A DNA stretch of 64,000 nucleotides, taken from contig CAYXGG010000002.1 in the NCBI GenBank assembly GCA_964464475.1, positions 93,455 to 157,454 on the forward strand, in the 5' to 3' direction. Position numbers and translations under genes: made by a program. Under the pieces are notes generated by a model. It ran no database searches. It was not told where the DNA came from and was given only the letters and a program-made list of their open reading frames with translations. This DNA is from an uncultured Planctomycetales bacterium. Its GTDB lineage: Bacteria; Omnitrophota; Gorgyraeia; Zapsychrales; JAHFFX01. Positions 28,265-51,318 of this stretch are shown here, in pieces (positions within the stretch are counted from its first letter, which is position 1; every line of letters begins with the position of its first letter).

Positions 28265-28295
28265 TAAGGACTAAACTTATTCCTCTGGTCACTAT

Positions 28296-29054: not shown

Positions 29055-29118
29055 CGGTTAGCAAATCATTTCGTTTTGAATTTCAGAATTATTTAGAATT
29101 TCTTATCTTCATTTTCTT

Positions 29119-29901
29119 TTAAATAGACATACACGTAAACCCGCCATCCACCGGAACTTCCGCCCCCGTGACGAATCCGGAAGCATCTGAACATAACCAA
29201 ATAACCGTGCTGACCAACTCCTCCGGCTTGCCAAAACGCCCCATGGGGGTATGGTTAAGAATCGCCCGTTGGCGATCCGGTGTAATAAAATTCCTCATGC
29301 TCCATTCCGTGGGAAAAAATCCTGGGCGCAACGCGTTGACTCGGACATTAAACGGGGCCCATTCTCGAGCCAAATTCTCGGTTAAGTTTTTGACGCCCGC
29401 TTTCGCGACCGAATAGGAAAAAGCCTTCGGCAAAGGCGGACCCGAGGAAACCGAAGAAAGATTAATAATACAGCCCCTTTTTCTTTTCACCATATACTCA
29501 CCAAAAACCTGACAGCCCAAAAAAGTGGCTTTGACATGACTATCCAGAATAGCCGTCCACTCTTCTTCGGTAATCTTAAAAAAAGGCGTGGGCGCGTTAA
29601 TTCCCGCACCATTAATCAGAATATCCACCCTGCCTAATTCCGCCAAGATCGCCCGCAACGCCATCTCATGATACTCTTTACGCGTCACATCGATCACAAA
29701 AGTCATGACCTTGACGCCAGTTTTTCGTCGGATGACTTTGGCAATCTGAGTCATGGTCTTTTCGTTACGGTCTAAAATCGCGATGTCCGCTCCCGATCGC
29801 GCCAAGGCCAGCGCCATTTGACTACATAAATACCCTCCGCCTCCGATCACCACCGCGACCTTATTTTTGAGCTGAAACATTTTAGATAAAAATTGATTCA
29901 C
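29119..29901 (-). CDS. SDR-family oxidoreductase
   Basis: VAVVIGGGGYL and YSVAKAGV. Confidence 0.85.
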   Translation of the reverse strand: MNQFLSKMFQLKNKVAVVIGGGGYLCSQMALALARSGADIAILDRNEKTMTQIAKVIRRKTGVKVMTFVIDVTRKEYHEMALRAILAELGRVDILINGAGINAPTPFFKITEEEWTAILDSHVKATFLGCQVFGEYMVKRKRGCIINLSSVSSGPPLPKAFSYSVAKAGVKNLTENLAREWAPFNVRVNALRPGFFPTEWSMRNFITPDRQRAILNHTPMGRFGKPEELVSTVIWLCSDASGFVTGAEVPVDGGFTCMSI

Positions 29902-31565
29902 GAGATATTCCCTTCTTTCGACGTTCTACCCTGAGTCAATACATCGGTCGCTAATTCCAAGCGCGACAAACGATGCCAATTATCCCCGTCAAAATAACCG
30001 ATAAACGGAACCCGCATCCCTCCGAGAATCAGACCGCGTTGCGTCTTTTGAGTAGTAAAAAAATATTTGTGCCACGGTACTGGGCCATCCACGAAATGTA
30101 AATCTTTCGGCTTCCAAGGATACTCCTTAAACCGAGAAACCTCACCACTAGGCATAATCTTTTCTTCCCGATTGCCGCAATAAAACAGATGATCCTCACT
30201 CAGATTGCGACGCAAGAACGCAAAATAGCGAGCAACGGACGCAGCGTTCATTTCCTGCATCGAGGCAATGTTGATCGCCAAATCAAAACGAAGCCCCTCC
30301 AGTGCGTCCAGAAATTCCGCGGGAACGAAGACAAAATCCGCCGTGCGAACATCATCCACACTTCTTTTTTGTTCCCAGAGCTGATGCTCTTTGCCGGGAA
30401 AAGCCCTCGTTAAATGCCGCGCCTGAAAAAGCAACGTCTTCCCCAAATCAACCATAAAAATGCGCGATTGGGGAAAAACTATTTTAATCATCCCGGAAAA
30501 AAAACCATAACCGTCGCCAATGTTCAAAACATTGAACCGGCTATTCCTCGCAAAATTCTTTTGAATCAACGCCAATGCGCATAGCTGACGAAAACAATCA
30601 TAAGTAAAATTTAATCCCATCCGGCGTGCGAGCTCTCGCCCCTGAGTCATGAGCCGCGTAAGGCGCCGACGATCGGATAGCTGGACTAAATAACAACCCA
30701 TCGTAGCCCACGAACAAACGCGATAAACCCAGGACGCATTTTCTAAATCGCCAAACCCTTCGCCGTGCAAACGTTCCAATCGATTCGCTGATTTGTGAAT
30801 CTTGACCCGCTGATGAAACTGCTTCCAATGAGAGGAGACCAAATGTTCGGGAGTCTGATTTTCTTCGTAGTAATCGGTAATCAACCGGTGGATGATCTCG
30901 TCATGCCGACGAGTTAAACTGGGGACATGCGATTGAAAATAATCTTTAATATCGGCTAAATCCGCAAACACCGGAGCAGAAACTCCTTTGAGTCTATGAC
31001 TCGGGTCACGACCGACAAAAACGACCCCCGCTTCGCTAGCGGACCGATAGTCTTCGAGGCTATCACCCACAAAAGCAACTTCGGCCGGATCCAGATCGCC
31101 GCGACGCATTATCTCTCTAAGAGCTTCCGTTTTCTTCCAGGGAACAGCGTAAATCCCGCTAAAGAACTTTTCCAACCCTTTTCTTTTTAGAATCCGCGTC
31201 AAATCCCCGACAGGATTAATCGTGGCCAGGTAAAGAGGGACCCTTTGAAAAAAGAATTCCAAGAATTCTTTCACGCCATGGACTAAGGGGCAATCAATAG
31301 TTTTCTGTACGACCAGCTGAGAAAATTTCTGACTTAATTCTGCCTGCAAATGCTCTGAGTACGGCTGTTTTAAAATATGTTCGGCAATAAAACGAAATTT
31401 CTCAAACCTGATGATGGCGTTGTGCGCTCGATGATAAGCCATGATGGCGGGTAACTGAGCCGGATAATCCTTATACAATTCCTCAAACGCCCGGTCTTTA
31501 ATGACCACCGATTCCACAATGACGCCGTCGAAATCGAGCACGATCGCCCGCAACGGAGCATCCAT
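29898..31565 (-). CDS. HAD-superfamily phosphatase fused to a putative sugar O-methyltransferase-like domain
   Basis: N-terminus carries HAD motif I (IVLDFDGVIV), motif III K and motif IV (FVGDSLEDY). The C-terminal ~350 aa carry NVLNIGDGYGFFSG, a class-I methyltransferase-like glycine motif. Start taken at the ATG at 31563-31565 (MDAPLRAIVLDFDG), which is a TAATG overlap; the ORF extends to 31625. Confidence 0.65.
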   Translation of the reverse strand: MDAPLRAIVLDFDGVIVESVVIKDRAFEELYKDYPAQLPAIMAYHRAHNAIIRFEKFRFIAEHILKQPYSEHLQAELSQKFSQLVVQKTIDCPLVHGVKEFLEFFFQRVPLYLATINPVGDLTRILKRKGLEKFFSGIYAVPWKKTEALREIMRRGDLDPAEVAFVGDSLEDYRSASEAGVVFVGRDPSHRLKGVSAPVFADLADIKDYFQSHVPSLTRRHDEIIHRLITDYYEENQTPEHLVSSHWKQFHQRVKIHKSANRLERLHGEGFGDLENASWVYRVCSWATMGCYLVQLSDRRRLTRLMTQGRELARRMGLNFTYDCFRQLCALALIQKNFARNSRFNVLNIGDGYGFFSGMIKIVFPQSRIFMVDLGKTLLFQARHLTRAFPGKEHQLWEQKRSVDDVRTADFVFVPAEFLDALEGLRFDLAINIASMQEMNAASVARYFAFLRRNLSEDHLFYCGNREEKIMPSGEVSRFKEYPWKPKDLHFVDGPVPWHKYFFTTQKTQRGLILGGMRVPFIGYFDGDNWHRLSRLELATDVLTQGRTSKEGNIS

Positions 31566-32362
31566 TAAGCGCGGTTGGCTTTGACCTGCAGCAAGCATTC
31601 TTGAAGTCGCTGTGTCCATTTCCAAAGAACGAAAACATCGGAAGCCAAGACAGTAAACGTATATCCCTTATCAAAAGCCTTTATAATCCCGTCGGTATCC
31701 GGCTCAATCAAATGCGTCCCGACCGATTTCTTATAACGATGACAAGCCTTCAACACGATCTCAGATGCTTCCTGCACCTTCTGATGAGTTAACTGTCCCG
31801 GGATCCCTAATGATCCGGAAATATCATACGGACCAATCATAACGCCATCAATATCCTCAGAATCCAGAATACTATCTATATTCTTCACGGCCTTAACCGA
31901 CTCAATCTGAACGATGACCACCGACGTCTCATTCCAAGTTGAAATATACTTATCAAAATCAAATCCATATCCCTGCGCGCGGGAAATACCAAAGCCTCGC
32001 TTCCCTACCGGAGGATATTTGCACCAGTCAATGATCTCTTTGACTTCGCCCGCCGACGAAACCATTGGGACGATCAAACCATCGGCCCCCGAATCCAGCA
32101 ACCGACGCGTCATTTCCGGATTATGTGACGCGACCCGAGGCAAACATAAGGAGCCATTGGCCTGGCAAGCTGCCACAATCCGCTGGGATTGTTCCTGATC
32201 AATCGTGCTGTGCTCAAGGTCGATACCGATAAAATCAAAACCTGCCCGAGTAAAGATTTCCGTGATGGAAGGATGCGCGAAGGAGTTCCAGCCCGCAAAC
32301 ACACGTTCACGGTTACGCATTTTGTTTTTAAGTAGTTGTCTTCGGGATATTAATTCTTTCAT
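31565..32362 (-). CDS. HpcH/HpaI-family aldolase (2-keto-3-deoxy-acid aldolase type)
   Basis: FIGIDLEHSTIDQEQ...LIVPMVSSAGEVKEIID gives the HpcH/HpaI TIM-barrel pattern. Confidence 0.75.
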   Translation of the reverse strand: MKELISRRQLLKNKMRNRERVFAGWNSFAHPSITEIFTRAGFDFIGIDLEHSTIDQEQSQRIVAACQANGSLCLPRVASHNPEMTRRLLDSGADGLIVPMVSSAGEVKEIIDWCKYPPVGKRGFGISRAQGYGFDFDKYISTWNETSVVIVQIESVKAVKNIDSILDSEDIDGVMIGPYDISGSLGIPGQLTHQKVQEASEIVLKACHRYKKSVGTHLIEPDTDGIIKAFDKGYTFTVLASDVFVLWKWTQRLQECLLQVKANRA

Positions 32363-33078
32363 TATTTTCTTTTGGGAGCGGGTGTCGAGGCCTGAGCTAG
32401 CGATTCTCCCTTGGCAGCGTCATCTAAAAACATTTGGACGGTCTCTTTCGAGTAAGGGTGCACGATCATACCATCCAGGAAAGAAGGAATGACCGTAACA
32501 ATATGCGAGCCGGCTTCCAGCCATTCAATAACGTTAATGACCTCACGAGTGGAGGCAAGAATAATTTGCGATTTCAGCTCATACGCGTCCAATAACTTAC
32601 GCAATTTGCGAATTTCCTCAATACAGTTATAACCCATGTTATTGACACGGCCACCCAGCATGGACACATACGACGCTCCCGCAAGAGCGGCGAGAAAACA
32701 TTGCTGCGCACTCATCATGGCGGTCACGTTGATGCGCACGTCATGCTTGGTTTCCAATTCATGAATGACTTCCAGATTGTCCAGTTCGCCTTTGGGACCG
32801 TGAATCGTAATTTTTACGGTAATATTTTTCGCCCAGCCGGCAATATCCAAAGCCTGTTTAAGCATTTCTTTCTTATCATTAGTTGTGACTTCCACAGATA
32901 GCGGATAAGGATGAATGAATTCCGCAATCTCAACGGTACGGGCCTTAATGCCCTTCATGCCCCCCGTCACCCCTTCTTTTAGGAGAATCGAAGGATTGGT
33001 CGTGACCCCGCGAATGATGCCCATACGATGATATTTTTTGATTAAATCCAAGTTGCCGGTGTCTAAAAAAATAGCCAT
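32362..33078 (-). CDS. fructose-6-phosphate aldolase / transaldolase-family protein
   Basis: MAIFLDTGNLDLIKKY...GVTTNPSIL gives the Tal/FSA signature; 238 aa is the short FSA/TalC size. Confidence 0.85.
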   Translation of the reverse strand: MAIFLDTGNLDLIKKYHRMGIIRGVTTNPSILLKEGVTGGMKGIKARTVEIAEFIHPYPLSVEVTTNDKKEMLKQALDIAGWAKNITVKITIHGPKGELDNLEVIHELETKHDVRINVTAMMSAQQCFLAALAGASYVSMLGGRVNNMGYNCIEEIRKLRKLLDAYELKSQIILASTREVINVIEWLEAGSHIVTVIPSFLDGMIVHPYSKETVQMFLDDAAKGESLAQASTPAPKRK

Positions 33079-33099
33079 TGGTTCTCCTGATTGATCACA

Positions 33100-33146
33100 A
33101 AATTCTAAGGACTAAACTCTAAAAAACACAAAATTTAGTCCTTAAG
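33100..33146 (-). terminator. hairpin spanning the stop codon of the SIS-isomerase gene, followed by a U tract and a ribosome-binding site (candidate internal terminator/attenuator)
   Basis: Inverted repeat of about 12 bp, CTAAGGACTAAA (33105-33116) and TTTAGTCCTTAAG (33133-33145), with a 16-nt loop. On the minus strand it is followed by AAUUUUGUG, then AGGAGA and the AUG at 33078. Confidence 0.35.
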
Positions 33147-33771
33147 GTTTAGAATTTATTCTCTCTCTTTTTTCCTGGGCGACATGCTCCCATTTATTCG
33201 ACATCTGCATGATACGGGGATCACAGACGATCAGATGCCAAATCACCGCGGCAAAACTTTCCGCGTGCGGCGTTACGGTCGCCGGATTCACGGTCGGAAC
33301 CACAACACAGGCATCAGCCACTTGAGCTGTAAATCCCCCATCGCGGCCGACCACTCCCATGATTTTCGCCTGCTGCGCTTTCGCATATTCCAATGCGTAA
33401 ACAAGGTTGGCGCTAATATTCTTCTCCTTACTACCCCCACCGACAGAAAAAACTATGACGCCATCTTGGGCACAGAGACCGGAAGTTTTAAGCCAGCCCG
33501 CAAAAACGGTTTCCCACCCTTCATCATTCGTACGCGCAGTCAACTCGGAAACGTTATCCACCGGGGAGTAAGCTTCAAAACCAGCTATCTTACGAAAATC
33601 ATTGACGGCGTGAGAGCAATTACCGGCGCTTCCGCCCACGCCCAAGAAAAACAAACGCCCCTTTTTCTCGCGAATTTCCAACAACAGCCTAATCATCTTT
33701 TCTACCACGGCCTGGTCAATCTGGCGGATAATCGCGACCGCCTCCTGCAAATACTGTTCCACATGATTCAT
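33142..33771 (-). CDS. SIS-domain sugar-phosphate isomerase (GmhA/phosphoheptose isomerase-like)
   Basis: LFFLGVGGSAGNCSHAVNDF ... VFSVGGGS; single SIS domain, 209 aa. Confidence 0.8.
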   Translation of the reverse strand: MNHVEQYLQEAVAIIRQIDQAVVEKMIRLLLEIREKKGRLFFLGVGGSAGNCSHAVNDFRKIAGFEAYSPVDNVSELTARTNDEGWETVFAGWLKTSGLCAQDGVIVFSVGGGSKEKNISANLVYALEYAKAQQAKIMGVVGRDGGFTAQVADACVVVPTVNPATVTPHAESFAAVIWHLIVCDPRIMQMSNKWEHVAQEKRERINSKP

Positions 33772-34796
33772 GTTGATGACCCCTTTTTACGCAGCACGAC
33801 CCGACAATACGAACTCATTAAACCTGTTTGTAAAAACTCCTGAAACGCCCGACGCACTTCGACGTCTTTGCGAGACAACAAACTTTTGACAAAACGCGGC
33901 AATTCAATCTTAGAATCATCTTTAACCGCCCGAGCCACGATTTCAACATCCAGCACACCCGGAGTGCTCAACTCAATACATTCAAAACCGTGACGGTCAA
34001 CCAAAGCGCGCAAACCTTCAACAGAGAAAACATTCATCCGATCCGGAGGATAAAGATTCTCCGCCTGGTCCCATAACACTTGAATATCAAAACCGGTCGC
34101 CACAATCGCCGTCAAGAAAACCAAGCCCTGTGGACGAAGCATTTCTTTAATTTTCTTAAATAATACGTCGGGTTGGGCACTGCGATCCGCGACTTCAAAA
34201 ACAGAAATCACATCCACCGCGTCTTTTAAATCCACTTCCCACCATGGAGCCTCCCACACATGACCCCCGTCAATATCTTTAAGTTTCGGAATTTTAACAA
34301 AAGGGTTAATTAACGTCTTGCGGGAGAAATTCTCCGCGTGAGCGAGCTCTTCGAGATAACCCCACTGATTGGTATTGATATCCGCAAAATGCTTGGCGGC
34401 CGGAAAATATTCCTGAGTCGACTCAACGATCCATTGAAAACGAGGTTTGATAATTTTCTCGTCACGTTTTTTCTTGGTCGCGTTGGATAGCTCCTCTCGC
34501 CAAAAAACGCGTGACGGCGCCGCATGATAAAACTCATTAATGGTTTTCTCATCCGGCCGGGGCGAAATAAATAACGTATGACAACTCTGGCAAGAACAAT
34601 AAGACAAACCTAATTTCTTAAAAGCCGGTTCAAATCGATTCGAAAAACAGGCAGGGCACAAACATTCTTCCAAACTCTTACTTTTCAGAAAAAACTTAGC
34701 GACGTCCTCACGGGTTAAATCTATATACTCCTTGATCAATCCGGAGGGCTTCAGATCAATCTCACGATACTCGTCAAAGACGACAATGTTCTTCAT
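33768..34796 (-). CDS. class I SAM-dependent methyltransferase with N-terminal Cys4 zinc-ribbon (sugar C-/O-methyltransferase-like)
   Basis: CPACFSNRF...CSCQSCHTLF zinc ribbon, then a Rossmann-like methyltransferase core (GLVFLTAIVATGFDIQ). Confidence 0.5.
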   Translation of the reverse strand: MKNIVVFDEYREIDLKPSGLIKEYIDLTREDVAKFFLKSKSLEECLCPACFSNRFEPAFKKLGLSYCSCQSCHTLFISPRPDEKTINEFYHAAPSRVFWREELSNATKKKRDEKIIKPRFQWIVESTQEYFPAAKHFADINTNQWGYLEELAHAENFSRKTLINPFVKIPKLKDIDGGHVWEAPWWEVDLKDAVDVISVFEVADRSAQPDVLFKKIKEMLRPQGLVFLTAIVATGFDIQVLWDQAENLYPPDRMNVFSVEGLRALVDRHGFECIELSTPGVLDVEIVARAVKDDSKIELPRFVKSLLSRKDVEVRRAFQEFLQTGLMSSYCRVVLRKKGSST

Positions 34797-35823
34797 TAAT
34801 TTTTCCTAGGGTGTGGGACTGTTGAGCGGCGTCCGCGTAAGCACGATCGATGAGTTCCATGACGCGCAGGGCATCCTCTGAGGAGCTGACGGTGACCGGC
34901 TTCTTTTCTTTAATACATTTAACAAACTCTTCCACTTCCAAATCCCAAGACAGATCTCGGTCAAAGTAAGTTACTTCCTCGGAGGGATTTCCGACTGCTT
35001 CCGTTTCATCTTCAAATTGCCGTCGGCCAACGATCAGTTTTTCCCGTCCATAGCTGCCGGTTTTGGAAAGCAACCCTTCCACAACTAAATAGCCTTCCTC
35101 TAACGTAATAAAAATTGAAAACGTATGTTTCCACATCGTCGCCGAGGAATGCAGGCACGCGCTTTGCGATTTCTTATTATGCAAAATCACGAACGCATTA
35201 TCTTCCATGGAAAATTTCCAGTAAGTATTCGCGGTAAAACACTTAACGAACTCAAAATCACCGCATAGATAGCGAAACAAATCCAGCATGTGAATTCCTT
35301 GATCCAACAAAATCCCGCCGCCGGAGATGTCCTTGTCATTGCGCCAGGATTTATTAAAATTTTTGCCGCCGGATTTCCCGTAAATCCCACGAACGTTAAT
35401 GATTTTGCCAAAACGCCCGCTTTCGATAATGACTTTAGCTTTAATAATTCCGGGATGAAAACGATGATTGAACCCGAACATAAGCCGCGTGCGAGACGTT
35501 TCGTACTTGATAATATTACGGATATCTTCAACGTGGCAACCCGGAGGTTTTTCACAAAAGACATGTTTGCCGGCCTGCATGGCCTTGATGCAGAAATCAG
35601 GAGAATATCGATTAGGGGTACAGACAAAAATGATGTCAGGAGAAGCGGCTAAAAGCTCATCAAAAGAAGCAAAGGCAGGACAACCAGAAATTTTTTGCAG
35701 CGTAGTTGACTGTGTATCGCAAATACCAACCAACGAAAGGTCCGGATTGCGCTCAATAACGCCACGGCGTATTTCGCCCATATAGCCGTACCCAATAATG
35801 CCGCATTTAAGTTGTTTATTCAT
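34774..35823 (-). CDS. Gfo/Idh/MocA-family NAD(P)-dependent oxidoreductase
   Basis: LKCGIIGYGYMGEIR N-terminal Rossmann motif plus EKP and a C-terminal GFH-domain pattern. Confidence 0.85.
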   Translation of the reverse strand: MNKQLKCGIIGYGYMGEIRRGVIERNPDLSLVGICDTQSTTLQKISGCPAFASFDELLAASPDIIFVCTPNRYSPDFCIKAMQAGKHVFCEKPPGCHVEDIRNIIKYETSRTRLMFGFNHRFHPGIIKAKVIIESGRFGKIINVRGIYGKSGGKNFNKSWRNDKDISGGGILLDQGIHMLDLFRYLCGDFEFVKCFTANTYWKFSMEDNAFVILHNKKSQSACLHSSATMWKHTFSIFITLEEGYLVVEGLLSKTGSYGREKLIVGRRQFEDETEAVGNPSEEVTYFDRDLSWDLEVEEFVKCIKEKKPVTVSSSEDALRVMELIDRAYADAAQQSHTLGKINEEHCRL

Positions 35824-36254: not shown

Positions 36255-36722
36255 ATGGTCTATTGCTTTCGGCAAAAACAACATCTTTCCCTTTCTGTAG
36301 AGAAGGCCTGGGATTTCTTCTCTAATCCGGCCAATTTGGCCACGATTACGCCACCCAAACTTAATTTTCAAATTACCAGCGAACTGCCCGAAGGAATTTA
36401 TGCCGGCCTCATCATCACTTACCACGTGACTCCCCTTTTTGGAATTCCCTTATCCTGGACGACAGAGATCACGCAATGCCGTAAGCCTGACTACTTTGTC
36501 GATTATCAGCTGTCCGGACCTTACAAAATCTGGCACCATCAGCATCACTTTCGTCCGCTGCCGTCCGGCGTTGAAATGGTAGACATCGTTTATTATGAAA
36601 TTGGCTATGGGTGGCTTGATCCGGTTTTAAACCGCTTGGTGATCGGCCCGCAATTAAACCACATCTTTGCTTACCGGAAGAAAATTTTAATGGAGAAATT
36701 TGGCCTAGCGACTCGGCCCTAG
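36255..36722 (+). CDS. SRPBCC-family ligand-binding domain protein (COG4276-like)
   Basis: 155 aa. KIWHHQHHFRP motif and a length typical of the START/Bet v1-like SRPBCC family. Only plus-strand gene in the window; its stop overlaps the convergent stop of 36719-38545 (CTAG). Confidence 0.65.
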   Translation: MVYCFRQKQHLSLSVEKAWDFFSNPANLATITPPKLNFQITSELPEGIYAGLIITYHVTPLFGIPLSWTTEITQCRKPDYFVDYQLSGPYKIWHHQHHFRPLPSGVEMVDIVYYEIGYGWLDPVLNRLVIGPQLNHIFAYRKKILMEKFGLATRP

Positions 36723-38545
36723 ACTAAAAATTGGGCCATCGCCGCATCCGTAACCGGTAGGAAATATCGTCCCAGATAAGCTTTAGCGTTGGCCCGGCGG
36801 CGTTCAAACTCGATCGCCGGCAACTGATCAATCGTTTGTAAAACCTGAACAAAATCGTCGCGCTCAGTCACCGTCCACTTCAAATCAGGGCATTGAAACA
36901 ATGGGTCATAACTAAGCATATGACCCATGTCAAAATTGATCAACGGCTTACCAACAGATAAGGCTTCCAACGCTCCCGTACTGCCCCAATACACCACCAC
37001 ATCGGACCACTTGATATCGTCCACAATAGAGGTTTCTTGAGACAAACGAAAATCTTTTCCCAGTTTAAATTCGGAGTCCAAGTTTCCGACAAAAGCGTTT
37101 AAAGGCAACGTCGGGTGCGTGCGCAACAATACCTCATATCCCTTCGTACCGCGCAGACCGCGCAAGCAATAGTTGACCAGCTTCGCGACATCAGCAACAC
37201 CCTCCAACATTAAAAGAATTCTAGAGATCGGCCTGCGAGGCTCCACGGGAAGATTTAACAAATATTCAAATCTCAGTCCGCCGGCCGCCACGACTTTCTG
37301 AGGCGCGACCGCACTGTACTGAAGAATGATGCGTCGGGTCTCCTCACCCACGGTTAAAATTTTATCAGGACCCGGAGTGATATCTCGATCCCGCCGGCTG
37401 ACAAACATGCCGGCCGCCGCTTGCGGAACCACCGTATGCTGGTACCCGGCAATAGCTACTGGCTTACCGGAATCTCGAGCAGCCAGAATACACATCCGTT
37501 CCCAGGGATTATTTTCATAAGTCAATAATAACTGACTGACCGGGATATTTTGCAACACTCGCGTCATCACCTGATAGTGCACGTACTGATACAACTGGAC
37601 TTTATATCGGGTGCGGTTTAGTTCCGCGTTAATCAATGCTTGCACATTAAAACCGTAGAAATCAACCTTTTCATCCAGCTTAATTCGATAAAAAAATAAT
37701 TCCCAGGCCGCAACCACCAGCTCCCCCAAAGTTAGAAAAAACTCGATGGGAAAGATGTTGGCGTTAGGACACTGACGCATTTTCTCCAAGCAGGGACCGT
37801 AATCGCCAAAAACAAACGCCAAAAACAAACAGGATCGCTGCTTTTTCAAGAATTCCGGCAATTGTCCAAAGAATACATCGCCGTAGCTGCCGTCCGGACG
37901 GAAAGAATGGTTATAGACAAAGGTTTTGATGACGTGCGCGTTATCCCCCGCCGACGTCCTGGCCTGTTGCCAGCGATCTTGCAAAGCTCTTCTCGCCTGA
38001 ATTCCCTTCCAGGAGATGGTAAGAACATCTTTTAGTAATGATCCTGCCCGTCGAACAATAGCAGCGATCATCTCCCTTATCTGCGCCAGTTCGTCAGTCA
38101 CGAGTTCAACCGTGATGCCTCGCTTCACCAAAGCTTCTCGTAATGTCTCCAGTAATACCCCGGGGACCTCTGGCACCAACAAACAATCATAGGTTTCTTT
38201 CTGAGCCACTTCGAGGATCATCCAGAATTCTTGCAGCAGGTGAGAATACCGCGATAAAAAACGATTCTTGGAAGAGAGGTCCGTTGCCCACCAGCGTCGA
38301 CTGGAGAACCGTTGATTCAACGCCCCCAGCAAATCCACGTACTCGCTACAAAATCGGTCTCGTTCTTCTAAGCTAATGGGACCAAAATGAAGACACTGCC
38401 ATTCTTCTCCCAAACACTCGGCAACATTTATTTTTGAAGACCGCGCGGGCGGCAAAAAATATTTCTTGTGCGTGGCGTGACGAGGAACAACTCTTTTCGC
38501 GATCGTAAGTAGGACCCCTTCCTGCACCAAAACAACTTTAGACAT
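36719..38545 (-). CDS. large hypothetical protein with GT-B-type C-terminal motif (candidate glycosyl/ulosonate transferase)
   Basis: About 608 aa from the MSKVV start. The C-terminal YWGSTGALEALSVGKPLI resembles the GT-B donor-binding G-x-G-T-x-x-E-A-x-x-x-G-x-P motif. Paralogous to the upstream gene. Confidence 0.45.
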   Translation of the reverse strand: MSKVVLVQEGVLLTIAKRVVPRHATHKKYFLPPARSSKINVAECLGEEWQCLHFGPISLEERDRFCSEYVDLLGALNQRFSSRRWWATDLSSKNRFLSRYSHLLQEFWMILEVAQKETYDCLLVPEVPGVLLETLREALVKRGITVELVTDELAQIREMIAAIVRRAGSLLKDVLTISWKGIQARRALQDRWQQARTSAGDNAHVIKTFVYNHSFRPDGSYGDVFFGQLPEFLKKQRSCLFLAFVFGDYGPCLEKMRQCPNANIFPIEFFLTLGELVVAAWELFFYRIKLDEKVDFYGFNVQALINAELNRTRYKVQLYQYVHYQVMTRVLQNIPVSQLLLTYENNPWERMCILAARDSGKPVAIAGYQHTVVPQAAAGMFVSRRDRDITPGPDKILTVGEETRRIILQYSAVAPQKVVAAGGLRFEYLLNLPVEPRRPISRILLMLEGVADVAKLVNYCLRGLRGTKGYEVLLRTHPTLPLNAFVGNLDSEFKLGKDFRLSQETSIVDDIKWSDVVVYWGSTGALEALSVGKPLINFDMGHMLSYDPLFQCPDLKWTVTERDDFVQVLQTIDQLPAIEFERRRANAKAYLGRYFLPVTDAAMAQFLV

Positions 38546-40613
38546 CGAGCGCCCCTCGGATAATCTTGTCCTCGCCCCACTGTCGAGCAAAGCTTTCTGC
38601 GACGGTTTGAATCGCCACTTCACGAGTCTGCCCGTTTTTTAACTCATGCAATAAATGCTGCAGAAAGTTTCCCATCCGTTGCGCCGCCTGACCATCACGA
38701 TACGGGTCCAGTTCAGGCAAAAACGTTGACCAATTGCCCAATATTTTGCGCTCCTGAGGATCATGAAAAAATCGCTCAACATTATTCCAAAGCTCTTCCC
38801 AGGTTAGAAAGACTGACTTACCGATGCCTAATTGATATAACGGACTTTTGACCCAACCCTCGCGATCCAATAAAAAGGTGGGAACCCCAGACAGCGCAGA
38901 CTCCAGCCCCGCCGTCCCAGCCCCCAAACTTTCATGAATAGCCAAGTCCGCGGCCAACGCTGCTGCTGCCGGAGAATATGCGCCCTGCAAAGCCCCTTCC
39001 CGAAAAACATAACAGCGTCCGGTGGCCTCAGCCTCTAATAATTTCTGACTGACGCGACCTAAGCGTTGTATCAAATTACGCGGAGTCTTCGGCTTGATGA
39101 TTAAGCCTAACGTTGAATCTCTCAAAACCGCGTCTAGGACAAATTCATAATTTTCCTGAGTAAATTCATGCCCCGTAAACCAGCGACTATCATCCAGGGA
39201 GTTTTCATCAAAGAAAGCGACAATCTTTTTCGCTCCGGCCTGGCGCAAGCGCTGACGAAGCCCCGCGCACAAATCTTTTAAAGGAGCAAAACGATAGTCT
39301 CCCACATACCCAACCACCACATAATAGTTAAAACGCGACCCACCGGCTTTCTCCACCTCCGCGCTGCGCCGCGAGAACCCAAAGACGATATCGGTGGACA
39401 CCGCGGTTCCCGCCGATGGGTTAGACTCGTAAGCGCGTTGATACAGTGTGGCGACCCCGCCAACTTCCTTGAGAGCGTCAGCCATCACCATGTGCTGGGC
39501 ATCATATTTGTACCAGCTCGTTGTCAATTTAATATTATTTTCCCGAAACAGCTGTTTCCAATAATTCTTCAAACGGTAATAGGCTTGCGTTTGTTCCCAT
39601 AAATAAACGGATTCGTGAGTAGACTTGTCAAGCTTCAGCACCGGAAGATTCGCAGTTTGTGGCGTGAAGGTCACCGCCTCAGTCGCGGATAATAAGTTTG
39701 CCTGAGGAGTAAGCGCGATTGCGGATAAGCCGTGTCGATGCAACACTCTCCATTTGCTTTCATCCAAAGGATCTAACATAGAGTTAAACAACAGCGTAAC
39801 TTCTTCACCTCGCAAGCGACTTCCCTGCAGGAACAATAAATCCGAGTTGCATTCCGGCCGGTCCAGGTTCAAATACCCCCAATATTCCGTCGCCAATCGC
39901 GGTGGAGAAACAACCGGGGAAGGAGTCGACGGCAATATCCAAATTTTCTTCAAGTAATGCAACACTACTTTCTGGCAAGCTCGGAAATTCTTTAATTTGG
40001 GAAGCAGCTGTTTTATTTTCAGGAGAGGAGATTTTCGTGACTGAAAAGCACCACTAAGATGTAAAGTGACCTGCTGTGCCTGCGCGTAACGACTCAACTC
40101 GTCAAACCACGGCCGGTTATTAATAAATAGCCGCGCCGCCACGTTATCTTGCTGCCACGAGCTTAAATGCCAGCGCACCACGGCAATGAGCGTGAGCACA
40201 TGCCAGAGTTGGTTAAATTTAGCTGGCCCATTAAAATCATAGTCGCACACCGCGCCCTTGGCGAGAAATAGTGACAAACGGTCATCGGAAGGATAGTGCG
40301 CAAGGAACTCTTTGACGTGTGACGATGTCTCCAAGCTCGCCCGCAGCTGCGCCAAATCTTCATAAAGTAAACGAAATTGCAGCGACTGGCCCAATTCATC
40401 CCGTAAATCAACAATCTTAAAATCCAACTGCACCAATTGGATGCCTTGGGCAGTGGCCAGGGTGTTCAACGCGGGCCACTGCCCAGTCGCCACATCAAAC
40501 ACATGTAACCGCTTCACTCGCCGCTTCATTAATTCCGGCAAAATCACCTGCCGCCAATTGTTCACGGATAACCACTCAACAAAAATAACTTCGCTGGAAT
40601 CTCCCGCGTTCAT
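38538..40613 (-). CDS. large hypothetical protein with GT-B-type C-terminal motif (paralog of 36719-38545)
   Basis: 691 aa. HESLGAGTAGLESALSGVPTFLL matches the GT-B (GT1-like) nucleotide-sugar-binding signature. The N-terminal ~400 aa are unassigned. Confidence 0.45.
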   Translation of the reverse strand: MNAGDSSEVIFVEWLSVNNWRQVILPELMKRRVKRLHVFDVATGQWPALNTLATAQGIQLVQLDFKIVDLRDELGQSLQFRLLYEDLAQLRASLETSSHVKEFLAHYPSDDRLSLFLAKGAVCDYDFNGPAKFNQLWHVLTLIAVVRWHLSSWQQDNVAARLFINNRPWFDELSRYAQAQQVTLHLSGAFQSRKSPLLKIKQLLPKLKNFRACQKVVLHYLKKIWILPSTPSPVVSPPRLATEYWGYLNLDRPECNSDLLFLQGSRLRGEEVTLLFNSMLDPLDESKWRVLHRHGLSAIALTPQANLLSATEAVTFTPQTANLPVLKLDKSTHESVYLWEQTQAYYRLKNYWKQLFRENNIKLTTSWYKYDAQHMVMADALKEVGGVATLYQRAYESNPSAGTAVSTDIVFGFSRRSAEVEKAGGSRFNYYVVVGYVGDYRFAPLKDLCAGLRQRLRQAGAKKIVAFFDENSLDDSRWFTGHEFTQENYEFVLDAVLRDSTLGLIIKPKTPRNLIQRLGRVSQKLLEAEATGRCYVFREGALQGAYSPAAAALAADLAIHESLGAGTAGLESALSGVPTFLLDREGWVKSPLYQLGIGKSVFLTWEELWNNVERFFHDPQERKILGNWSTFLPELDPYRDGQAAQRMGNFLQHLLHELKNGQTREVAIQTVAESFARQWGEDKIIRGALDV

Positions 40614-42241
40614 TCTTTACTTCCTTCAATTGAATTATTTGACCGCTTTTCCCACCAGGACTTCAACAACCTTTTCTCCGGGCTTTTATAGAGCGGATCA
40701 AAACCGCGCGCTTTCAACTCACGCAAATGGAATAACACTACGTCACGGTCAAAACTAACCAAACCACACGCCCTTAAGTTGGACAGAATCTGAACAGAAG
40801 GCACCATTTCTTTCAAAAATCTAAAAACCTCGCTGGGGGGCGAACGGTCTTCACCCGTCGTCCATTGATAAAGACGGTCACGCCATTGATATTCATCCGA
40901 ATATAAAAAATAAATCTTCCCTACCGATATTCCTTCCAATAGCGCGATTAATCGGTCCACTTCCTGCCAGTCTTGCCCCGCCTTAATCGGAACCACCTGG
41001 GGGATTAACGCCGCTCCTCCCTGTATTTGCAAATGCGTCATGTAAACCAGAATGGTATCCGTCGGTTGCACGTTCTGTTTCAACCAGCGAATCGGCACCC
41101 GTAAATTATTTCGATCTAGATAAAAGTTACCGACCGATAGCAGCGTGTTAATCAGTAAATACCCGCTGATGAGAAACCTTTGACGATCCCTAAGTAAAGG
41201 TTCCGTGGCCAGCCTCCCCGCGAACCCCAAGACCGCGAGGATAATCGGAATATAAAAAAACCTGGAGAAAAAAACATGATTATGCGGCGTAAACAAACCC
41301 GTCGCGATTCCGGAAATTATCCCGGTCCAGTACAACCAAATCCAAAATTGGCGATGTCCGTCTTTAACCGACGTCGCTTTCCAAAACATACCCAAACAGA
41401 CCACATTAAGTTCTAATATAAATCTGCTCAGGCCCAGCAGATTATCCCAATACGTTACGAAAGTCCGTCCGATGACACGATTGCCAATAGATAATGAACT
41501 CATGGCGACATCATTGAACATCACAATGACCGGGGCCACCAGCAACAATAATCCGACCCCGGCCGCCACCAAGCCCCGATAGCGTTCCAACCACTCTTGG
41601 CAGCGTGATATTTTAAGAGCAGCGGCAATGAGTATGGCAAAAACCAAAATCTGAGCGTGCTGAATTTGCCAGTGATCAAGTATTGGAAAGAGAAAAGCGG
41701 CGCCCAGCAGTAACCCGCAAAATAAAACGTTGCGCCGAGGACCATGCAGCCAACCGTTCCACGCTTCCCAAAAAGCGAGGAAAGCGACCAGCGCCAAACA
41801 CGCCAACGGCGGATAAAAGCGAAGATACAAAGCTTTCTCCAACACCACCGCTTGACCTAAAAAAAAGATAACCACTAACGCCAATCCTAAAGCGGACAAT
41901 TGTTGACGCACGCGGGCATAAATTAAAAAAGCCCCCAACAGGAGCACAGTAAACACCAACGGAATCGCGCGCACCGCTAACAGCGATTCTCCCCCCCCAC
42001 GCATAACCTGCGCGGTCATCCCCGTCATGGTCAAAGCGCGGGTATATTCGTGTCCGTCAAATCGTCCCGTATCAAAATTCCAACAAACCGGACGGCCTTT
42101 TTCGATAAACCCCTTGGCCGCCTGCAAATGCGATACTTCATCTCCCCACAAAGGGAGAGACTGGGCTAAAAGTAGCCAAGCTCCCGCAAAAGCAACAATG
42201 ACGACCCCGAGAATAAAGTTTAAAGACGCGTCGCGATTCAT
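40610..42241 (-). CDS. GT-C family membrane glycosyltransferase (ArnT/PMT-like, GT83/GT39 type)
   Basis: 543 aa. At least eleven TM helices, an early periplasmic loop with a DE motif (LPLWGDEVSH) and a C-terminal periplasmic domain. Confidence 0.6.
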   Translation of the reverse strand: MNRDASLNFILGVVIVAFAGAWLLLAQSLPLWGDEVSHLQAAKGFIEKGRPVCWNFDTGRFDGHEYTRALTMTGMTAQVMRGGGESLLAVRAIPLVFTVLLLGAFLIYARVRQQLSALGLALVVIFFLGQAVVLEKALYLRFYPPLACLALVAFLAFWEAWNGWLHGPRRNVLFCGLLLGAAFLFPILDHWQIQHAQILVFAILIAAALKISRCQEWLERYRGLVAAGVGLLLLVAPVIVMFNDVAMSSLSIGNRVIGRTFVTYWDNLLGLSRFILELNVVCLGMFWKATSVKDGHRQFWIWLYWTGIISGIATGLFTPHNHVFFSRFFYIPIILAVLGFAGRLATEPLLRDRQRFLISGYLLINTLLSVGNFYLDRNNLRVPIRWLKQNVQPTDTILVYMTHLQIQGGAALIPQVVPIKAGQDWQEVDRLIALLEGISVGKIYFLYSDEYQWRDRLYQWTTGEDRSPPSEVFRFLKEMVPSVQILSNLRACGLVSFDRDVVLFHLRELKARGFDPLYKSPEKRLLKSWWEKRSNNSIEGSKE

Positions 42242-45195: not shown

Positions 45196-45199
45196 CGGT

Positions 45200-48430: not shown

Positions 48431-48440
48431 GCTCGATTCA

Positions 48441-49670: not shown

Positions 49671-49680
49671 AATGAACCTC

Positions 49681-51209: not shown

Positions 51210-51318
51210 AAAATAGTTCTCGTAGAAATTCCTAGATTCTCAGCAAGTATCATCATTATTTAAGTTGCTTTGAATAAAGAACCTTTCGTACTTCGGTAAC
51301 CTAGTCAACATTAACCGT

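What the first reader, a model, noticed from the sequence alone, without database searches (positions are those of the whole stretch)
36719..40613. Two large paralogous GT-B-motif proteins as candidate CMP-sugar (Kdo/NulO) transferases
Adjacent 608- and 691-aa soluble proteins share a C-terminal G-x-G-T-x-x-E-(S/A)-L-x-x-G-x-P stretch (GSTGALEALSVGKPL and GAGTAGLESALSGVPT), characteristic of GT-B nucleotide-sugar binding domains. Their N-terminal halves are long and unassigned. The island encodes two different CMP-sugar synthetases (KdsB-like at 26.5 kb, NeuA-like at 55 kb), so two retaining or inverting CMP-sugar transferases are expected. No classical sialyl/Kdo transferase is otherwise visible. 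Size and tandem arrangement recall KpsC/KpsS-type beta-Kdo transferases or two-domain capsule polymerases.
Basis: inference. Interest (0 to 1): 0.65.

Follow-up and report, generated by a model that had tools for sequence, protein, structure and literature searches.

The report
Two orphan GT-B ulosonic-acid transferase candidates
Two overlapping genes encode large soluble proteins with a glycosyltransferase-B fold and no curated family; in many uncultivated bacteria and some archaea one follows a legionaminic-acid pathway and the other precedes a KdsB-linked sugar pathway, so they are the best candidates for the enzymes that attach these two CMP-activated acidic sugars to a surface polysaccharide.

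Summary
The two ORFs are real. P1 is 36719-38545(-), 608 aa. P2 is 38538-40613(-), 691 aa. Both are soluble, and their coding sequences overlap. The shared C-terminal motif is real and strongly conserved in both families.

AlphaFold models are confident (pLDDT 92 and 90). Foldseek places both in the generic GT-B fold. Each has an extra N-terminal module of about 200-235 aa.

They are not detectable paralogues by BLAST or default hhalign. Larger profiles show remote homology only in the C-terminal, nucleotide-binding domain.

Neither protein belongs to any Pfam family. That excludes Capsule_synth (KpsC/KpsS), TagF and the sialyltransferase families. The P1 family gives consistent sub-threshold matches to TIGR04326, TIGR04396 and NF046086. 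NF046086 contains the Tannerella Pse/Leg transferases. P1 also has an invariant R-x-H-P motif. The P2 family has more than 2000 cluster representatives and no annotation. It carries K-P-K at the matching position.

Across 142 related loci, P2 follows Leg-type nonulosonic-acid genes, and P1 precedes a conserved block containing an HpcH aldolase and a KdsB-like enzyme.

Verdict: the CMP-ulosonic-acid transferase idea is plausible and supported by context. The KpsC/KpsS or dual-polymerase analogy is not supported. These are probably new GT families, with no biochemical proof.

The parts
36719..38545 (-). P1: 608-aa soluble GT-B-fold protein. It is a divergent sister of the TIGR04326/TIGR04396/NF046086 group and the candidate transferase for the KdsB-activated (Kdo-like) sugar.
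   Evidence: ORF. Model pLDDT 92, pTM 0.91. GT-B matches in Foldseek. NCBIfam sub-threshold hits. Synteny.
38538..40613 (-). P2: 691-aa soluble GT-B-fold protein from a large family with no annotation. It is the candidate transferase for the legionaminic-acid-type sugar.
   Evidence: ORF. Model pLDDT 90, pTM 0.89. GT-B matches in Foldseek. No Pfam, NCBIfam or PDB match. 2086 cluster representatives. Synteny.
37112..37123 (-). P1 R475-T-H477-P478: an 'HP' motif after the second strand of the C-terminal Rossmann domain.
   Evidence: R475 and H477 are 85/85 and P478 is 82/85. Coordinates checked. The motif lies inside the stretch matched by NF046086 (P1 residues 469-541). HP motifs are described for sialyl- and NulO transferases (PMC5420450).
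39087..39095 (-). P2 K507-P508-K509, at the topological place of the P1 HP motif.
   Evidence: K507 and K509 are 179/179 and P508 is 178/179. hhalign aligns R475 with K507 and P478 with P508.
36944..36991 (-). P1 Y519-P534 (YWGSTGALEALSVGKP): the nucleotide-binding helix motif of the GT-B C-domain.
   Evidence: Conservation. Weak profile match to GT41/GT4 structures over this stretch. Aligned to the P2 motif with high confidence.
38880..38915 (-). P2 T567-P578 (TAGLESALSGVP): the same T-x3-E-x4-G-x-P motif.
37865..37879 (-). P1 D223-x-F-F-G227: an invariant acidic motif in the N-terminal Rossmann domain and a candidate catalytic or acceptor-side residue. P2 has S257-D258-L-[F]-F261 at 39831-39845.
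   Evidence: D223 is 85/85; P2 D258 is 155/179 with E in a further 13. hhalign aligns the two, but in a low-confidence region. The functional role is inferred.
38258..38293 (-). P1 W85-F96 (WWATDLSSKNRF): a highly conserved loop inside the extra N-terminal module, which spans residues 1 to about 200.
   Evidence: W85 84/85, W86 83/85, S92 81/85, K93 76/85 (R in a further 9), R95 82/85. The motif is retained in the most distant relatives. Its function is unknown.
24923..35823 (-). 'K block': GFO oxidoreductase, methyltransferase, SIS isomerase, TAL/FSA aldolase, HpcH aldolase, HAD phosphatase, two SDRs, an unknown 320-aa protein, a KdsB-like cytidylyltransferase (26532-27305), a 2-hydroxyacid dehydrogenase and a second methyltransferase. 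This is the proposed source of P1's donor.
   Evidence: Pfam and NCBIfam. The same block follows P1 homologues across phyla.
46182..55672 (-). 'N block': a legionaminic-acid-type pathway. It comprises DegT/LegC-like, CBS-NTP transferase (PtmE-like), WbuX plus HisH/HisF-like amidotransferase, PglD-like acetyltransferase, NeuC-type epimerase, NeuB-type synthase, an SDR and a NeuA/PseF-like cytidylyltransferase (54971-55672). A LegB-like dehydratase lies at 60612-61604. This is the proposed source of P2's donor.
   Evidence: The same genes lie upstream of P2 homologues.
40610..42241 (-). 543-aa polytopic membrane protein whose stop overlaps the P2 start. It may be a partner in glycan assembly; its role is unknown.
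   Evidence: Nine hydrophobic segments and an ATGA overlap. No Pfam or NCBIfam match. It is kept next to P2-P1 in the closest relative but in few other loci.

Best explanation
P1 and P2 are cytoplasmic, single-module GT-B glycosyltransferases from two very distantly related and so far unclassified families. Each has an extra N-terminal module of about 200-235 aa.

Proposed mechanism (inferred). The C-terminal Rossmann domain binds the cytidine monophosphate of a CMP-activated 2-ulosonic acid. The contacts would be the T-x3-E-x4-G-x-P helix, with the Glu on the ribose, and a basic motif after strand C-beta2 on the phosphate: R-x-H-P in P1 and K-P-K in P2. The N-terminal Rossmann domain, together with the extra module, would hold the growing lipid-linked repeat unit.

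Proposed donors. P2 transfers the legionaminic-acid-type nonulosonic acid made by the upstream NeuB/NeuC/LegB/LegC/WbuX/NeuA-like genes. P1 transfers the Kdo-like acid activated by the downstream KdsB-like enzyme.

What is shown: the fold, the conserved motifs, the remote link of P1 to the NulO-transferase family, and the synteny. What is inferred: the donor identity, the pairing of each protein with a pathway, the acceptor and the stereochemistry.
For: Fold:
- Models are confident (pLDDT 92 and 90).
- Foldseek finds hundreds of GT-B matches (404 and 124 at E<=1e-3). These include the CMP-dependent polysialyltransferase 5wcn for P2 and the TagF-like 8qoy for P1.

Family links:
- 48/49 P1 relatives hit TIGR04326 (best E 9e-23), 47/49 hit TIGR04396 and 45/49 hit NF046086 BFO_1060 (best E 7e-11).
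- The BFO_1060 family holds Tanf_01245 and TFUB4_00887. Deleting these removes the Pse or Leg derivative from the Tannerella O-glycan. They carry HP motifs (PMC5420450).

Motifs:
- P1 R475 and H477 are invariant (85/85). P2 K507 and K509 are invariant (179/179) at the aligned place.
- The C-domains are remotely homologous (hhalign 73.5%, E 3e-5).

Context in the window:
- Both cytidylyltransferases are present.
- The Leg pathway is complete without P2, so P2 is not needed as a pathway enzyme.
- The island has an initiating phosphoglycosyltransferase, GT2 and GT4 enzymes and a Wzy-like protein, which fits a lipid-linked repeat unit.

Synteny over 62 + 80 loci from many phyla and two archaea:
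- N-block genes lie upstream of P2 in 31/33 loci (three or more genes in 19/33) and no K block lies upstream.
- The K block lies downstream of P1 in 23/41 loci and no N block lies downstream.
- P1-like presence versus K block in P2-anchored loci: OR 12.5, p 0.004.
- P2 presence versus N genes in P1-anchored loci: OR 6.3, p 0.026.
- Thirteen loci carry P1 and the K block without P2 or the N block. Six carry P2 and the N block without P1 or the K block.

The overlapping reading frames point to co-expression.
Against: - There are no biochemical or genetic data for either family.
- P2 has no significant sequence link to any characterised transferase. Only 1-2 of 40 relatives give E about 0.01-0.02 hits to NF046086 or TIGR04396. 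It also lacks the His of the HP motif.
- All P1 matches to NCBIfam models are far below the curated cut-offs (43.8 against 250 bits, 21.9 against 125, 20.7 against 200).
- The top Foldseek hits are UDP-GlcNAc 2-epimerases and UDP/TDP-sugar GTs at 10-14% identity. The fold therefore says nothing about the nucleotide.
- The pairing has exceptions. Four P2 loci have the K block but no P1-like gene within 10 kb (L070, L072, L077, L121). Six of 21 P1-like-containing loci lack the K block in the available flank.
- The statistics are not corrected for phylogeny, and flanks are limited to 10 kb.
- There is a cautionary precedent. B. subtilis SpsB is TagB-like, carries HP motifs and sits next to a Leg pathway, yet it was not required for Leg transfer (PMC7439481).
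- The N-terminal domains give no significant profile signal between P1 and P2.
Confidence: 0.5

Rival explanations
1. They are ordinary GT-B glycosyltransferases that use UDP-, GDP- or dTDP-sugars. They add other residues of the repeat unit, and the ulosonic acids are transferred by other, unrecognised proteins.
For: - Best structural matches are UDP/TDP-dependent GT1, GT4 and GT20 enzymes and epimerases.
- A weak profile hit links the P1 C-terminus to GT4/GT41 structures.
- The island also makes an NDP-6-deoxyhexose (NTP transferase plus 4,6-dehydratase).
- Several island ORFs have no assignment: the 536-aa, 320-aa, 568-aa and 507-aa proteins.
Against: - There is no Pfam GT1 or GT4 membership.
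- P1 carries the invariant HP motif and links consistently to the NulO-transferase family.
- Placement at the borders of the two CMP-sugar pathways is tight and conserved across phyla, often with no other GT nearby.
- The unassigned ORFs in the island are mostly polytopic membrane proteins.
Confidence: 0.2
2. They are GT-B-fold enzymes that are not transferases. They would be nucleotide-sugar hydrolases or 2-epimerases of the NeuC/PseG type, acting inside the two sugar pathways.
For: - NeuC and other UDP-GlcNAc 2-epimerases are the top Foldseek hits for both proteins.
- 3/49 P1 relatives hit PseG weakly.
- P2 against a NeuC profile gives hhalign E 0.0077.
- P2 often sits inside the N block, as in L128-L130.
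Against: - The window already has a full-scoring NeuC (428 bits against a cut-off of 236), and the Leg pathway is complete without P2.
- There is no Epimerase_2 Pfam match.
- The proteins are almost twice the size of epimerases and carry a conserved extra module.
- The epimerase hits share only 10-13% identity, with TM-scores normalised to the target of about 0.55-0.6. That is typical of any GT-B comparison.
Confidence: 0.1
3. They are TagF/TagB-like phosphotransferases. They would use a CDP-activated alcohol or sugar and build phosphodiester links, as in teichoic-acid-like or group 2 capsule polymers.
For: - The TagF-like capsule multienzyme 8qoy ranks 9th for P1 (E 2.7e-9).
- The related Tannerella enzymes were themselves annotated with a TagB superfamily domain.
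- CMP-leaving-group chemistry is shared between the two enzyme classes.
Against: - No Glyphos_transf or other TagF-type Pfam match appears for any of 89 family members at E<=1.
- No CDP-glycerol or CDP-ribitol synthase gene was identified next to P1 or P2, here or in the related loci.
- The conserved neighbours are the two CMP-ulosonic-acid pathways.
Confidence: 0.08
4. They are KpsC/KpsS-type retaining beta-Kdo transferases (GT107, GT99, GT118 or GT140), or dual-module capsule polymerases.
For: - 3/49 P1 relatives give weak Capsule_synth hits (best E 0.0039).
- An HP motif is present in P1.
- A KdsB-like gene is nearby.
- The sizes are similar to KpsC.
Against: - P1 and P2 themselves do not match Capsule_synth at E<=1, and no P2 relative does.
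- No GT99, GT107 or GT140 structure appears among the top 50 Foldseek matches.
- Those families have a reduced N-terminal Rossmann domain (PMC12887879). Here the N-domain has a full set of seven strands.
- Each protein has only one GT module.
- No KpsM/T/E/D export genes were seen in the scanned ORFs.
Confidence: 0.05

Closest known systems
NF046086 'BFO_1060 family glycosyltransferase': the Tannerella forsythia Pse and Leg-derivative transferases Tanf_01245 and TFUB4_00887
   Same: - GT-B type and soluble.
- HP motif in the C-terminal domain.
- The gene lies immediately downstream of a CMP-NulO pathway.
- 45/49 P1 relatives match the model (best E 7e-11), over the region containing RTHP and the T-x3-E-x4-G-x-P helix (PMC5420450).
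   Different: - Those proteins are 442-445 aa and lack the roughly 200-aa N-terminal module.
- P1 scores 20.7 bits against a cut-off of 200.
- Only one of 40 P2 relatives hits the model (E 0.009).
- No D/E-D/E-G motif was identified in P1 or P2.
TIGR04326 (O_ant_LIC13510) and TIGR04396 'surface carbohydrate biosynthesis protein' families, both uncharacterised
   Same: - The TIGR04326 profile is 602 positions long, the same size as P1.
- P1 residues 312-570 match profile positions 311-575 colinearly.
- 48/49 relatives hit the model.
   Different: - Scores are 31-62 bits for distant relatives and 43.8 bits for P1, against a cut-off of 250.
- The N-terminal 310 residues do not align.
- These families have no demonstrated function, so the link adds no mechanism.
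Bacterial GT-B sialyltransferases (CAZy GT38, GT52, GT80)
   Same: - GT-B fold with a CMP-sugar donor.
- An HP motif contacts the CMP phosphate.
- The GT38 polysialyltransferase 5wcn is a Foldseek hit for P2 (E 8.9e-6).
   Different: - No Pfam match to any of these families.
- P2 has K-P-K in place of H-P.
- P1 and P2 are much larger and have an N-terminal extension.
Retaining beta-Kdo and Pse transferases: GT99 (WbbB), GT107 (KpsC/KpsS), GT118 (KpsS1), GT140 (KrkA)
   Same: They use CMP-ulosonic acid donors and derive from the GT-B fold. As here, new families with negligible sequence similarity keep being found (PMC12887879).
   Different: Those enzymes have a strongly reduced N-terminal Rossmann domain and an Asp nucleophile. 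P1 and P2 have a full N-domain, do not belong to Capsule_synth, and show none of these structures among the top 50 structural matches.
Acinetobacter baumannii KdoT (unclassified inverting GT-B Kdo transferase, 2025)
   Same: It is a precedent for a canonical two-Rossmann GT-B enzyme that uses CMP-Kdo and is assigned to no GT family (PMC12856342).
   Different: KdoT acts on Kdo2-lipid A and relies on an SRRT motif not looked for in P1 or P2.
TagF/TagB CDP-glycerol glycerophosphotransferases and TagF-like capsule polymerases
   Same: GT-B-like fold with a cytidine nucleotide leaving group. 8qoy is a Foldseek hit for P1.
   Different: There is no Pfam match, and no CDP-alditol synthesis genes are in the conserved neighbourhood.

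Membership tests
GT-B fold superfamily | Two Rossmann-like domains with a C-terminal helix crossing back, and significant structural similarity to solved GT-B proteins. | tested here: met
   Models have pLDDT 92 and 90. Foldseek against the PDB gives 404 (P1) and 124 (P2) matches at E<=1e-3. All of the top 50 are GT-B proteins.
Pfam Capsule_synth (KpsC/KpsS, CAZy GT107) | A match to PF05159 at or above the gathering score. | tested here: not met
   P1 and P2 give no hit at E<=1. Family-wide, 3/49 P1 relatives hit with best E 0.0039, below gathering, and 0/40 P2 relatives hit.
Dual-module enzymes such as KpsC, or two-domain capsule polymerases | Two separate glycosyltransferase modules in one polypeptide. 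| tested here: not met
   The secondary-structure maps show one seven-strand N-domain and one C-domain, plus an extra module of about 200-235 aa containing only 4-5 strands. Foldseek alignments cover a single GT-B of about 370-390 residues.
NF046086 BFO_1060 family (NulO transferases) | A score at or above the NCBIfam cut-off of 200 bits. | tested here: not met
   P1 scores 20.7 bits (E 1.8e-4). 45/49 relatives match at best E 7e-11, all below the cut-off. One of 40 P2 relatives matches.
NF046086 BFO_1060 family (NulO transferases) | An HP motif in the C-terminal domain. | tested here: met
   This holds for P1 only: R475-x-H477-P478, with H477 at 85/85, lies inside the matched stretch. P2 has K-P-K instead.
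TIGR04326 (LIC13510 family) | A score at or above 250 bits over the 602-position profile. | tested here: not met
   P1 scores 43.8 bits and matches only profile positions 311-575. Distant relatives score 31-62 bits.
Bacterial sialyltransferases GT38, GT42, GT52, GT80 | A match to the corresponding Pfam models. | tested here: not met
   The whole of Pfam-A was scanned at E<=1 for P1, P2 and 89 relatives. None of these families was reported.
Bacterial sialyltransferases GT38, GT42, GT52, GT80 | A D/E-D/E-G motif in the N-domain together with an HP motif. | tested here: inconclusive
   P1 has HP but no D/E-D/E-G. Its invariant acidic residues are D223, E344 and E349. P2 has D469-E470-N at the end of C-beta1 and K-P-K. 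Structural equivalence could not be checked without model coordinates.
TagF/TagB glycerophosphotransferases | A match to the Glyphos_transf Pfam model, and CDP-glycerol or CDP-ribitol supply genes. | tested here: not met
   No such Pfam hit appeared. No CDP-alditol synthase was seen among the conserved neighbours. The only link is fold-level similarity to 8qoy.
CMP-ulosonic-acid-dependent glycosyltransferase (functional class) | Uses a CMP-activated 2-ulosonic acid as donor. | not testable with these tools
   This is inferred only from synteny with the two cytidylyltransferase pathways and the remote family link. It needs an enzyme assay or a ligand-bound structure.
UDP-GlcNAc 2-epimerase / NeuC family | A match to Pfam Epimerase_2 or TIGR03568. 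| tested here: not met
   Neither P1 nor P2 hits these models. The true NeuC of the window scores 428 bits.

The most novel reading that the evidence does not exclude
P2 founds a large, previously unrecognised glycosyltransferase family: more than 2000 clusters at 50% identity, with no Pfam, NCBIfam or PDB relative. On this reading it is the missing glycan-directed legionaminic-acid transferase of many uncultivated bacterial phyla. P1, together with its invariably linked block (HpcH aldolase, TAL/FSA, SIS, HAD, KdsB-like), marks an undescribed route to a CMP-activated Kdo-like acid that needs neither KdsA nor NeuB, along with its dedicated transferase. That route is shared by bacteria and methanogenic archaea.
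Probability: 0.35. Interest if true: 0.75.

Novelty: new variant of a known kind. Interest (0 to 1): 0.55.

Why it matters
Transferases for bacterial nonulosonic acids are known far less well than the pathways that make those sugars. The papers read here call that knowledge scarce (PMC5420450), and the Leg transferase of B. subtilis is still unidentified (PMC7439481).

New ulosonic-acid GT families are still being defined: GT118 in 2024, GT140 in 2026, and KdoT, which remains unassigned (PMC12887879, PMC12856342).

A family as large as P2's, with no annotation and a fixed place at the end of Leg pathways, would give a direct handle for several tasks. These include annotating surface-glycan loci in Omnitrophota, Desulfobacterota-like lineages, CPR bacteria and archaea, chemo-enzymatic synthesis of Leg glycosides, and defining new CAZy families.

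The P1-linked gene block may also encode an undescribed acidic sugar.

Tried and rejected
Searches that found nothing useful:
- BLASTP of P1 against P2 found no similarity. Default hhalign of the first alignments gave 0.3% probability.
- Sequence and profile searches of the PDB gave nothing for P2. P1 gave only E 0.1-0.5 hits, to GT41/GT4 C-domains.
- Pfam scans of both proteins and of 89 relatives found no family.
- A third homologue search with an alignment of the most divergent P1 relatives returned no named or more distant family, only one 736-aa hit at E 2.5e-4.
- tblastn against 72,556 plasmids gave no match for either protein.
- Full-text searches for TIGR04326, TIGR04396 and LIC13510, and for the HpcH + cytidylyltransferase + transaldolase combination, returned nothing useful.
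- The exact-sequence look-up of P1 for its source contig failed. The cluster look-up gave no names.

- The exhaustive profile search with P2 listed only full-length family members among its best 150. It gave the family size but no bridge to a known family.

Readings rejected:
- Recent paralogues: no sequence signal outside the C-domain.
- KpsC/KpsS membership.
- A dual-module polymerase.
- TagF membership.

Full report
**What is there.** The coordinates hold two minus-strand ORFs.
- P1 is 36719-38545, 608 aa from an ATG. A GTG 26 codons upstream is possible, but homologues of 608-610 aa cover the 608-aa form end to end.
- P2 is 38538-40613, 691 aa.
- The P2 stop and P1 start overlap by 8 nt. 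The stop of the upstream 543-aa membrane-protein gene overlaps the P2 start by 4 nt. The three genes are therefore likely co-translated.
- Neither P1 nor P2 has a hydrophobic segment of membrane grade.
The truly shared spacing is T-x3-E-x4-G-x-P.
- That pattern occurs in no other of the 56 window proteins tested, against 0.6 expected. It is conserved in 85 P1-family and 179 P2-family sequences.

**Are they paralogues?** Not detectably so by ordinary means.
- BLASTP finds nothing. hhalign on the first alignments gives 0.3% probability.
- With larger alignments (85 and 179 sequences), hhalign produces a colinear alignment of P1 1-597 with P2 6-653. The E-value is 7.5e-4 but the probability is only 25%.
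- Split by region, the signal lies in the C-terminal domain (73.5%, E 3e-5). The N-terminal modules give E 0.011 and the N-terminal Rossmann domains give 0.13.
- P1 against P2 scores better than either against NeuC or GT4 control profiles. The controls were shallow.
- The order of secondary-structure elements is strikingly parallel in the two models. Both run beta-alpha-beta-alpha, a helical insert, beta-alpha-beta, one very long helix, and then a classical GT-B.
- Several short motifs fall at aligned places: D-x-F-F; Y-Q-H in P1 and Y-Q-R in P2; an acidic residue ending C-beta1; R-x-H-P in P1 and K-P-K in P2; the T-x3-E-x4-G-x-P helix; and S-x-D-P-L-F in P1 against S-P-L-Y in P2.
- I read them as very distant homologues sharing an architecture, not as recent duplicates.

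**Fold and family.**
- AlphaFold2 with family alignments gives confident models: P1 pLDDT 92 and pTM 0.91, P2 pLDDT 90 and pTM 0.89.
- Foldseek against the PDB returns only GT-B proteins. These are UDP-GlcNAc 2-epimerases including NeuC, GT1 (OleD, CalG), GT4 (MshA, BshA), GT20, GT41 (SPY), a TagF-like capsule multienzyme (8qoy, for P1) and a CMP-dependent polysialyltransferase (5wcn, for P2).
- All matches share 10-14% identity, with TM-scores normalised to the target of about 0.55-0.6. The fold is certain, but the subfamily and the nucleotide are not.
- Pfam gives nothing for the two proteins or for 89 relatives. The exceptions are scattered weak hits: 3/49 P1 relatives to Capsule_synth and 4/49 to the GT4 N-domain.
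- NCBIfam is more informative for P1. Of 49 relatives, 48 match TIGR04326, 47 match TIGR04396 and 45 match NF046086 (best E 9e-23, 2.5e-11 and 7e-11). Every score is far below the curated cut-offs.
- NF046086 is built around Tannerella forsythia BFO_1060. Its orthologues Tanf_01245 and TFUB4_00887 are required for adding the Pse or Leg derivative to the O-glycan. They carry the HP motif of bacterial sialyltransferases (PMC5420450).
- P1 has an invariant R475-x-H477-P478 inside the matched stretch.
- P2 has no curated relative. One or two of 40 members graze TIGR04396 and NF046086 at E about 0.01-0.02. Profile searches of the PDB find nothing.
- An exhaustive profile search nevertheless finds 2086 cluster representatives, 991 of them below 1e-30. 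P2 therefore belongs to a large family with no annotation.

**Context in the window.**
- Positions 1-9 kb are housekeeping genes: an opp/dpp ABC transporter, a TPR protein and pgk.
- From about 12.7 kb to the end lies a surface-polysaccharide island entirely on the minus strand. It contains a Bac_transf initiating transferase, a GT4, two GT2s, a Wzy_C-like protein, other polytopic membrane proteins and an NDP-6-deoxyhexose pathway.
- Upstream of P2 lies a complete legionaminic-acid-type pathway. Scores against cut-offs are: NeuB-type synthase 463 (400), NeuC-type hydrolysing epimerase 428 (236), LegB-like dehydratase 457 (475) and WbuX 341 (203). The pathway also has a DegT aminotransferase, a PglD-like acetyltransferase, a CBS-NTP transferase, HisH/HisF-like amidotransferase partners and a PseF/NeuA-like cytidylyltransferase.
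- Downstream of P1 lies a twelve-gene block. It encodes a GFO oxidoreductase, a methyltransferase, a SIS isomerase, a TAL/FSA aldolase, an HpcH/HpaI aldolase, a HAD phosphatase, two SDRs, an unknown protein, a cytidylyltransferase, a 2-hydroxyacid dehydrogenase and a second methyltransferase. The cytidylyltransferase passes two KdsB models (293 against 255 bits, and 169 against 155).

**Context elsewhere.** I fetched 62 P1-family loci from species-representative genomes. They come from Omnitrophota, Thermodesulfobacteriota, Scalindua, SAR324, CPR, Bacteriovoracaceae, Magnetococcales, Rhodospirillales, Methanolobus vulcani and a Methanomicrobiaceae MAG. I also fetched 80 P2-family loci from metagenomes. 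Window proteins were mapped onto all of them.
- P1 is followed by three or more genes of the KdsB-like block in 23/41 loci with at least 6 kb downstream. It is never followed by the NulO block.
- P2 is preceded by NulO-block genes in 31/33 loci with at least 6 kb upstream, and by three or more of them in 19/33. It is never preceded by the KdsB-like block.
- The commonest immediate neighbours are DegT before P2 and the GFO gene after P1.
- Thirteen loci carry P1 and the K block with neither P2 nor the N block. Six carry P2 and the N block with neither P1 nor the K block.
- HMM searches show that most apparent 'P2 plus K block without P1' loci contain a divergent P1-like gene.
- In P2-anchored loci, P1-like presence goes with the K block ([[15,6],[2,10]], OR 12.5, p 0.004).
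- In P1-anchored loci, P2 presence goes with two or more N genes ([[7,4],[5,18]], OR 6.3, p 0.026).
- These tests ignore phylogenetic non-independence and are limited by 10-kb flanks. Four loci have P2 and the K block without any P1-like gene.
- Divergent P2-like ORFs sit directly upstream of P1 homologues in Methanolobus vulcani and in an Omnitrophota MAG. The tandem is therefore older and wider than the BLAST counts suggest.

**Most likely mechanism.**
- Shown: the GT-B fold, the conserved C-domain motifs, the remote P1 link to NulO transferases, and the pathway-specific synteny.
- Inferred: the C-domain binds the CMP of a CMP-ulosonic acid. The helix Glu (E527 in P1, E571 in P2) would sit on the ribose, and R475/H477 in P1 or K507/K509 in P2 on the phosphate.
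- Inferred: the N-domain holds a lipid-linked acceptor, with invariant acidic residues D223, E344 and E349 in P1 and near-invariant D258 in P2. The extra N-terminal module would contribute, through the P1 WW-x-T-x2-S-S-K-N-R-F loop and the conserved K119 of P2.
- Inferred: P2 adds the Leg-type sugar and P1 adds the KdsB-activated sugar.
- Stereochemistry, acceptor and processivity are unknown.
- I put 0.5 on this overall reading.

**Rivals.**
- Ordinary NDP-sugar GTs (0.2). The structural neighbours are UDP/TDP enzymes.
- Non-transferase GT-B enzymes such as epimerases or hydrolases (0.1). The Leg pathway is complete without P2, and a bona fide NeuC is present.
- TagF-like phosphotransferases (0.08). 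There is no Pfam match and no CDP-alditol genes.
- KpsC/KpsS-like or dual-module polymerases (0.05). Membership was tested and not met, and each protein has a single GT module.
- One caution applies to any argument from gene neighbourhood. B. subtilis SpsB has a TagB domain and HP motifs and lies beside a Leg pathway, yet it was not needed for Leg transfer (PMC7439481).

**Comparison with the known, and novelty.**
- P1 works most like the Tannerella NulO transferases and the GT-B sialyltransferases. It fails the membership tests for NF046086, TIGR04326, Capsule_synth, TagF and the sialyltransferase Pfam families.
- P2 fails all of those tests and has no curated relative.
- Both are best described as new variants, probably new GT families, of a known kind of enzyme.
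- The recent literature shows that such families are still being discovered: GT118, GT140 and the unassigned KdoT.
- I found no paper describing either family.

**Limits.**
- Model coordinates could not be inspected, so no superposition or pocket analysis was done.
- Seven ORFs of the island were not scanned against Pfam.
- The source organism is not identified. The closest homologues, at 42-47% identity, are from an Omnitrophota MAG.

Noticed in passing
window 24923-35823 (-); also L002, L003, L013-L024, L045, L055, L057: A conserved block of about 10-12 genes encodes a GFO oxidoreductase, a methyltransferase, a SIS isomerase, a TAL/FSA aldolase, an HpcH/HpaI pyruvate aldolase, a HAD phosphatase, two SDRs, a KdsB-scoring cytidylyltransferase and a 2-hydroxyacid dehydrogenase. 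It contains no KdsA or NeuB. It looks like an undescribed aldolase-based route to a CMP-activated Kdo-like acid. The block is found in many bacterial phyla and in a Methanomicrobiaceae archaeon. No paper was found with these terms.
   Followed up: partly
L049:7876-9825 (Methanolobus vulcani PL 12/M) and L051:7880-9820: ORFs of about 630 aa lie directly upstream of the P1 homologues. They match only the C-terminal part of the P2 profile (scores 18-22 bits). They carry K-E-K-K in place of K-P-K and a P2-like DP[YF](L/R)D.KAI(D/E)R tail. They look like a third, divergent branch of the P2 family, and one of them is in a cultured archaeon.
   Followed up: partly
window 40610-42241 (-) and 42243-43853 (-): A 543-aa polytopic membrane protein (nine hydrophobic segments) and a 536-aa soluble protein have no Pfam or NCBIfam match. 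Both are kept next to P2-P1 in the closest relative (L005), but in few other loci. The membrane-protein gene overlaps the P2 start (ATGA).
   Followed up: partly
window 43825-45285 (-): A 486-aa protein with nitroreductase-family domains sits between the GT2 and the unknown 536-aa gene, inside the glycan island. This is an unusual component for a polysaccharide locus, and it was not found in any of the 142 related loci.
   Followed up: no
window 36255-36722 (+): This is the only sizeable plus-strand ORF (155 aa) that does not lie antisense to a minus-strand gene, in about 60 kb of otherwise minus-strand genes. It fills most of the gap between P1 and the GFO gene, and its last codons overlap the P1 stop. 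It has no Pfam match. Related loci usually have the GFO gene directly after P1.
   Followed up: no
window 29898-31625 (-): The HAD phosphatase of the K block is 575 aa. The HAD domain covers only residues 26-204, and the remaining roughly 370 residues have no Pfam match. Homologues in related loci are about 215-240 aa (L002, L003).
   Followed up: no
window 27302-28264 (-): A 320-aa ORF lies between the SDR pair and the KdsB-like gene. It has no Pfam or NCBIfam match and no BLAST homologue in any of the 142 related loci.
   Followed up: no
window 48441-51209 (-): A WbuX-type N-acetyl-sugar amidotransferase lies with HisH- and HisF-like partners inside the Leg pathway. This suggests an acetamidino-substituted legionaminic acid, as in the Legionella pneumophila O-antigen (the comparison is from my own knowledge). 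The same trio recurs upstream of many P2 homologues.
   Followed up: partly
L003:6698-8542: In an Omnitrophota MAG, a 614-aa protein annotated with Pfam PF27878 (PFTS_polysacc) and a Polysacc_synt flippase immediately precede the P1 homologue. The relation of PF27878 to P1 and P2 was not examined.
   Followed up: no
window 1-64000: GC skew is negative in every 2-kb bin of the window. This matches the fact that nearly all of the listed ORFs are on the minus strand.
   Followed up: no
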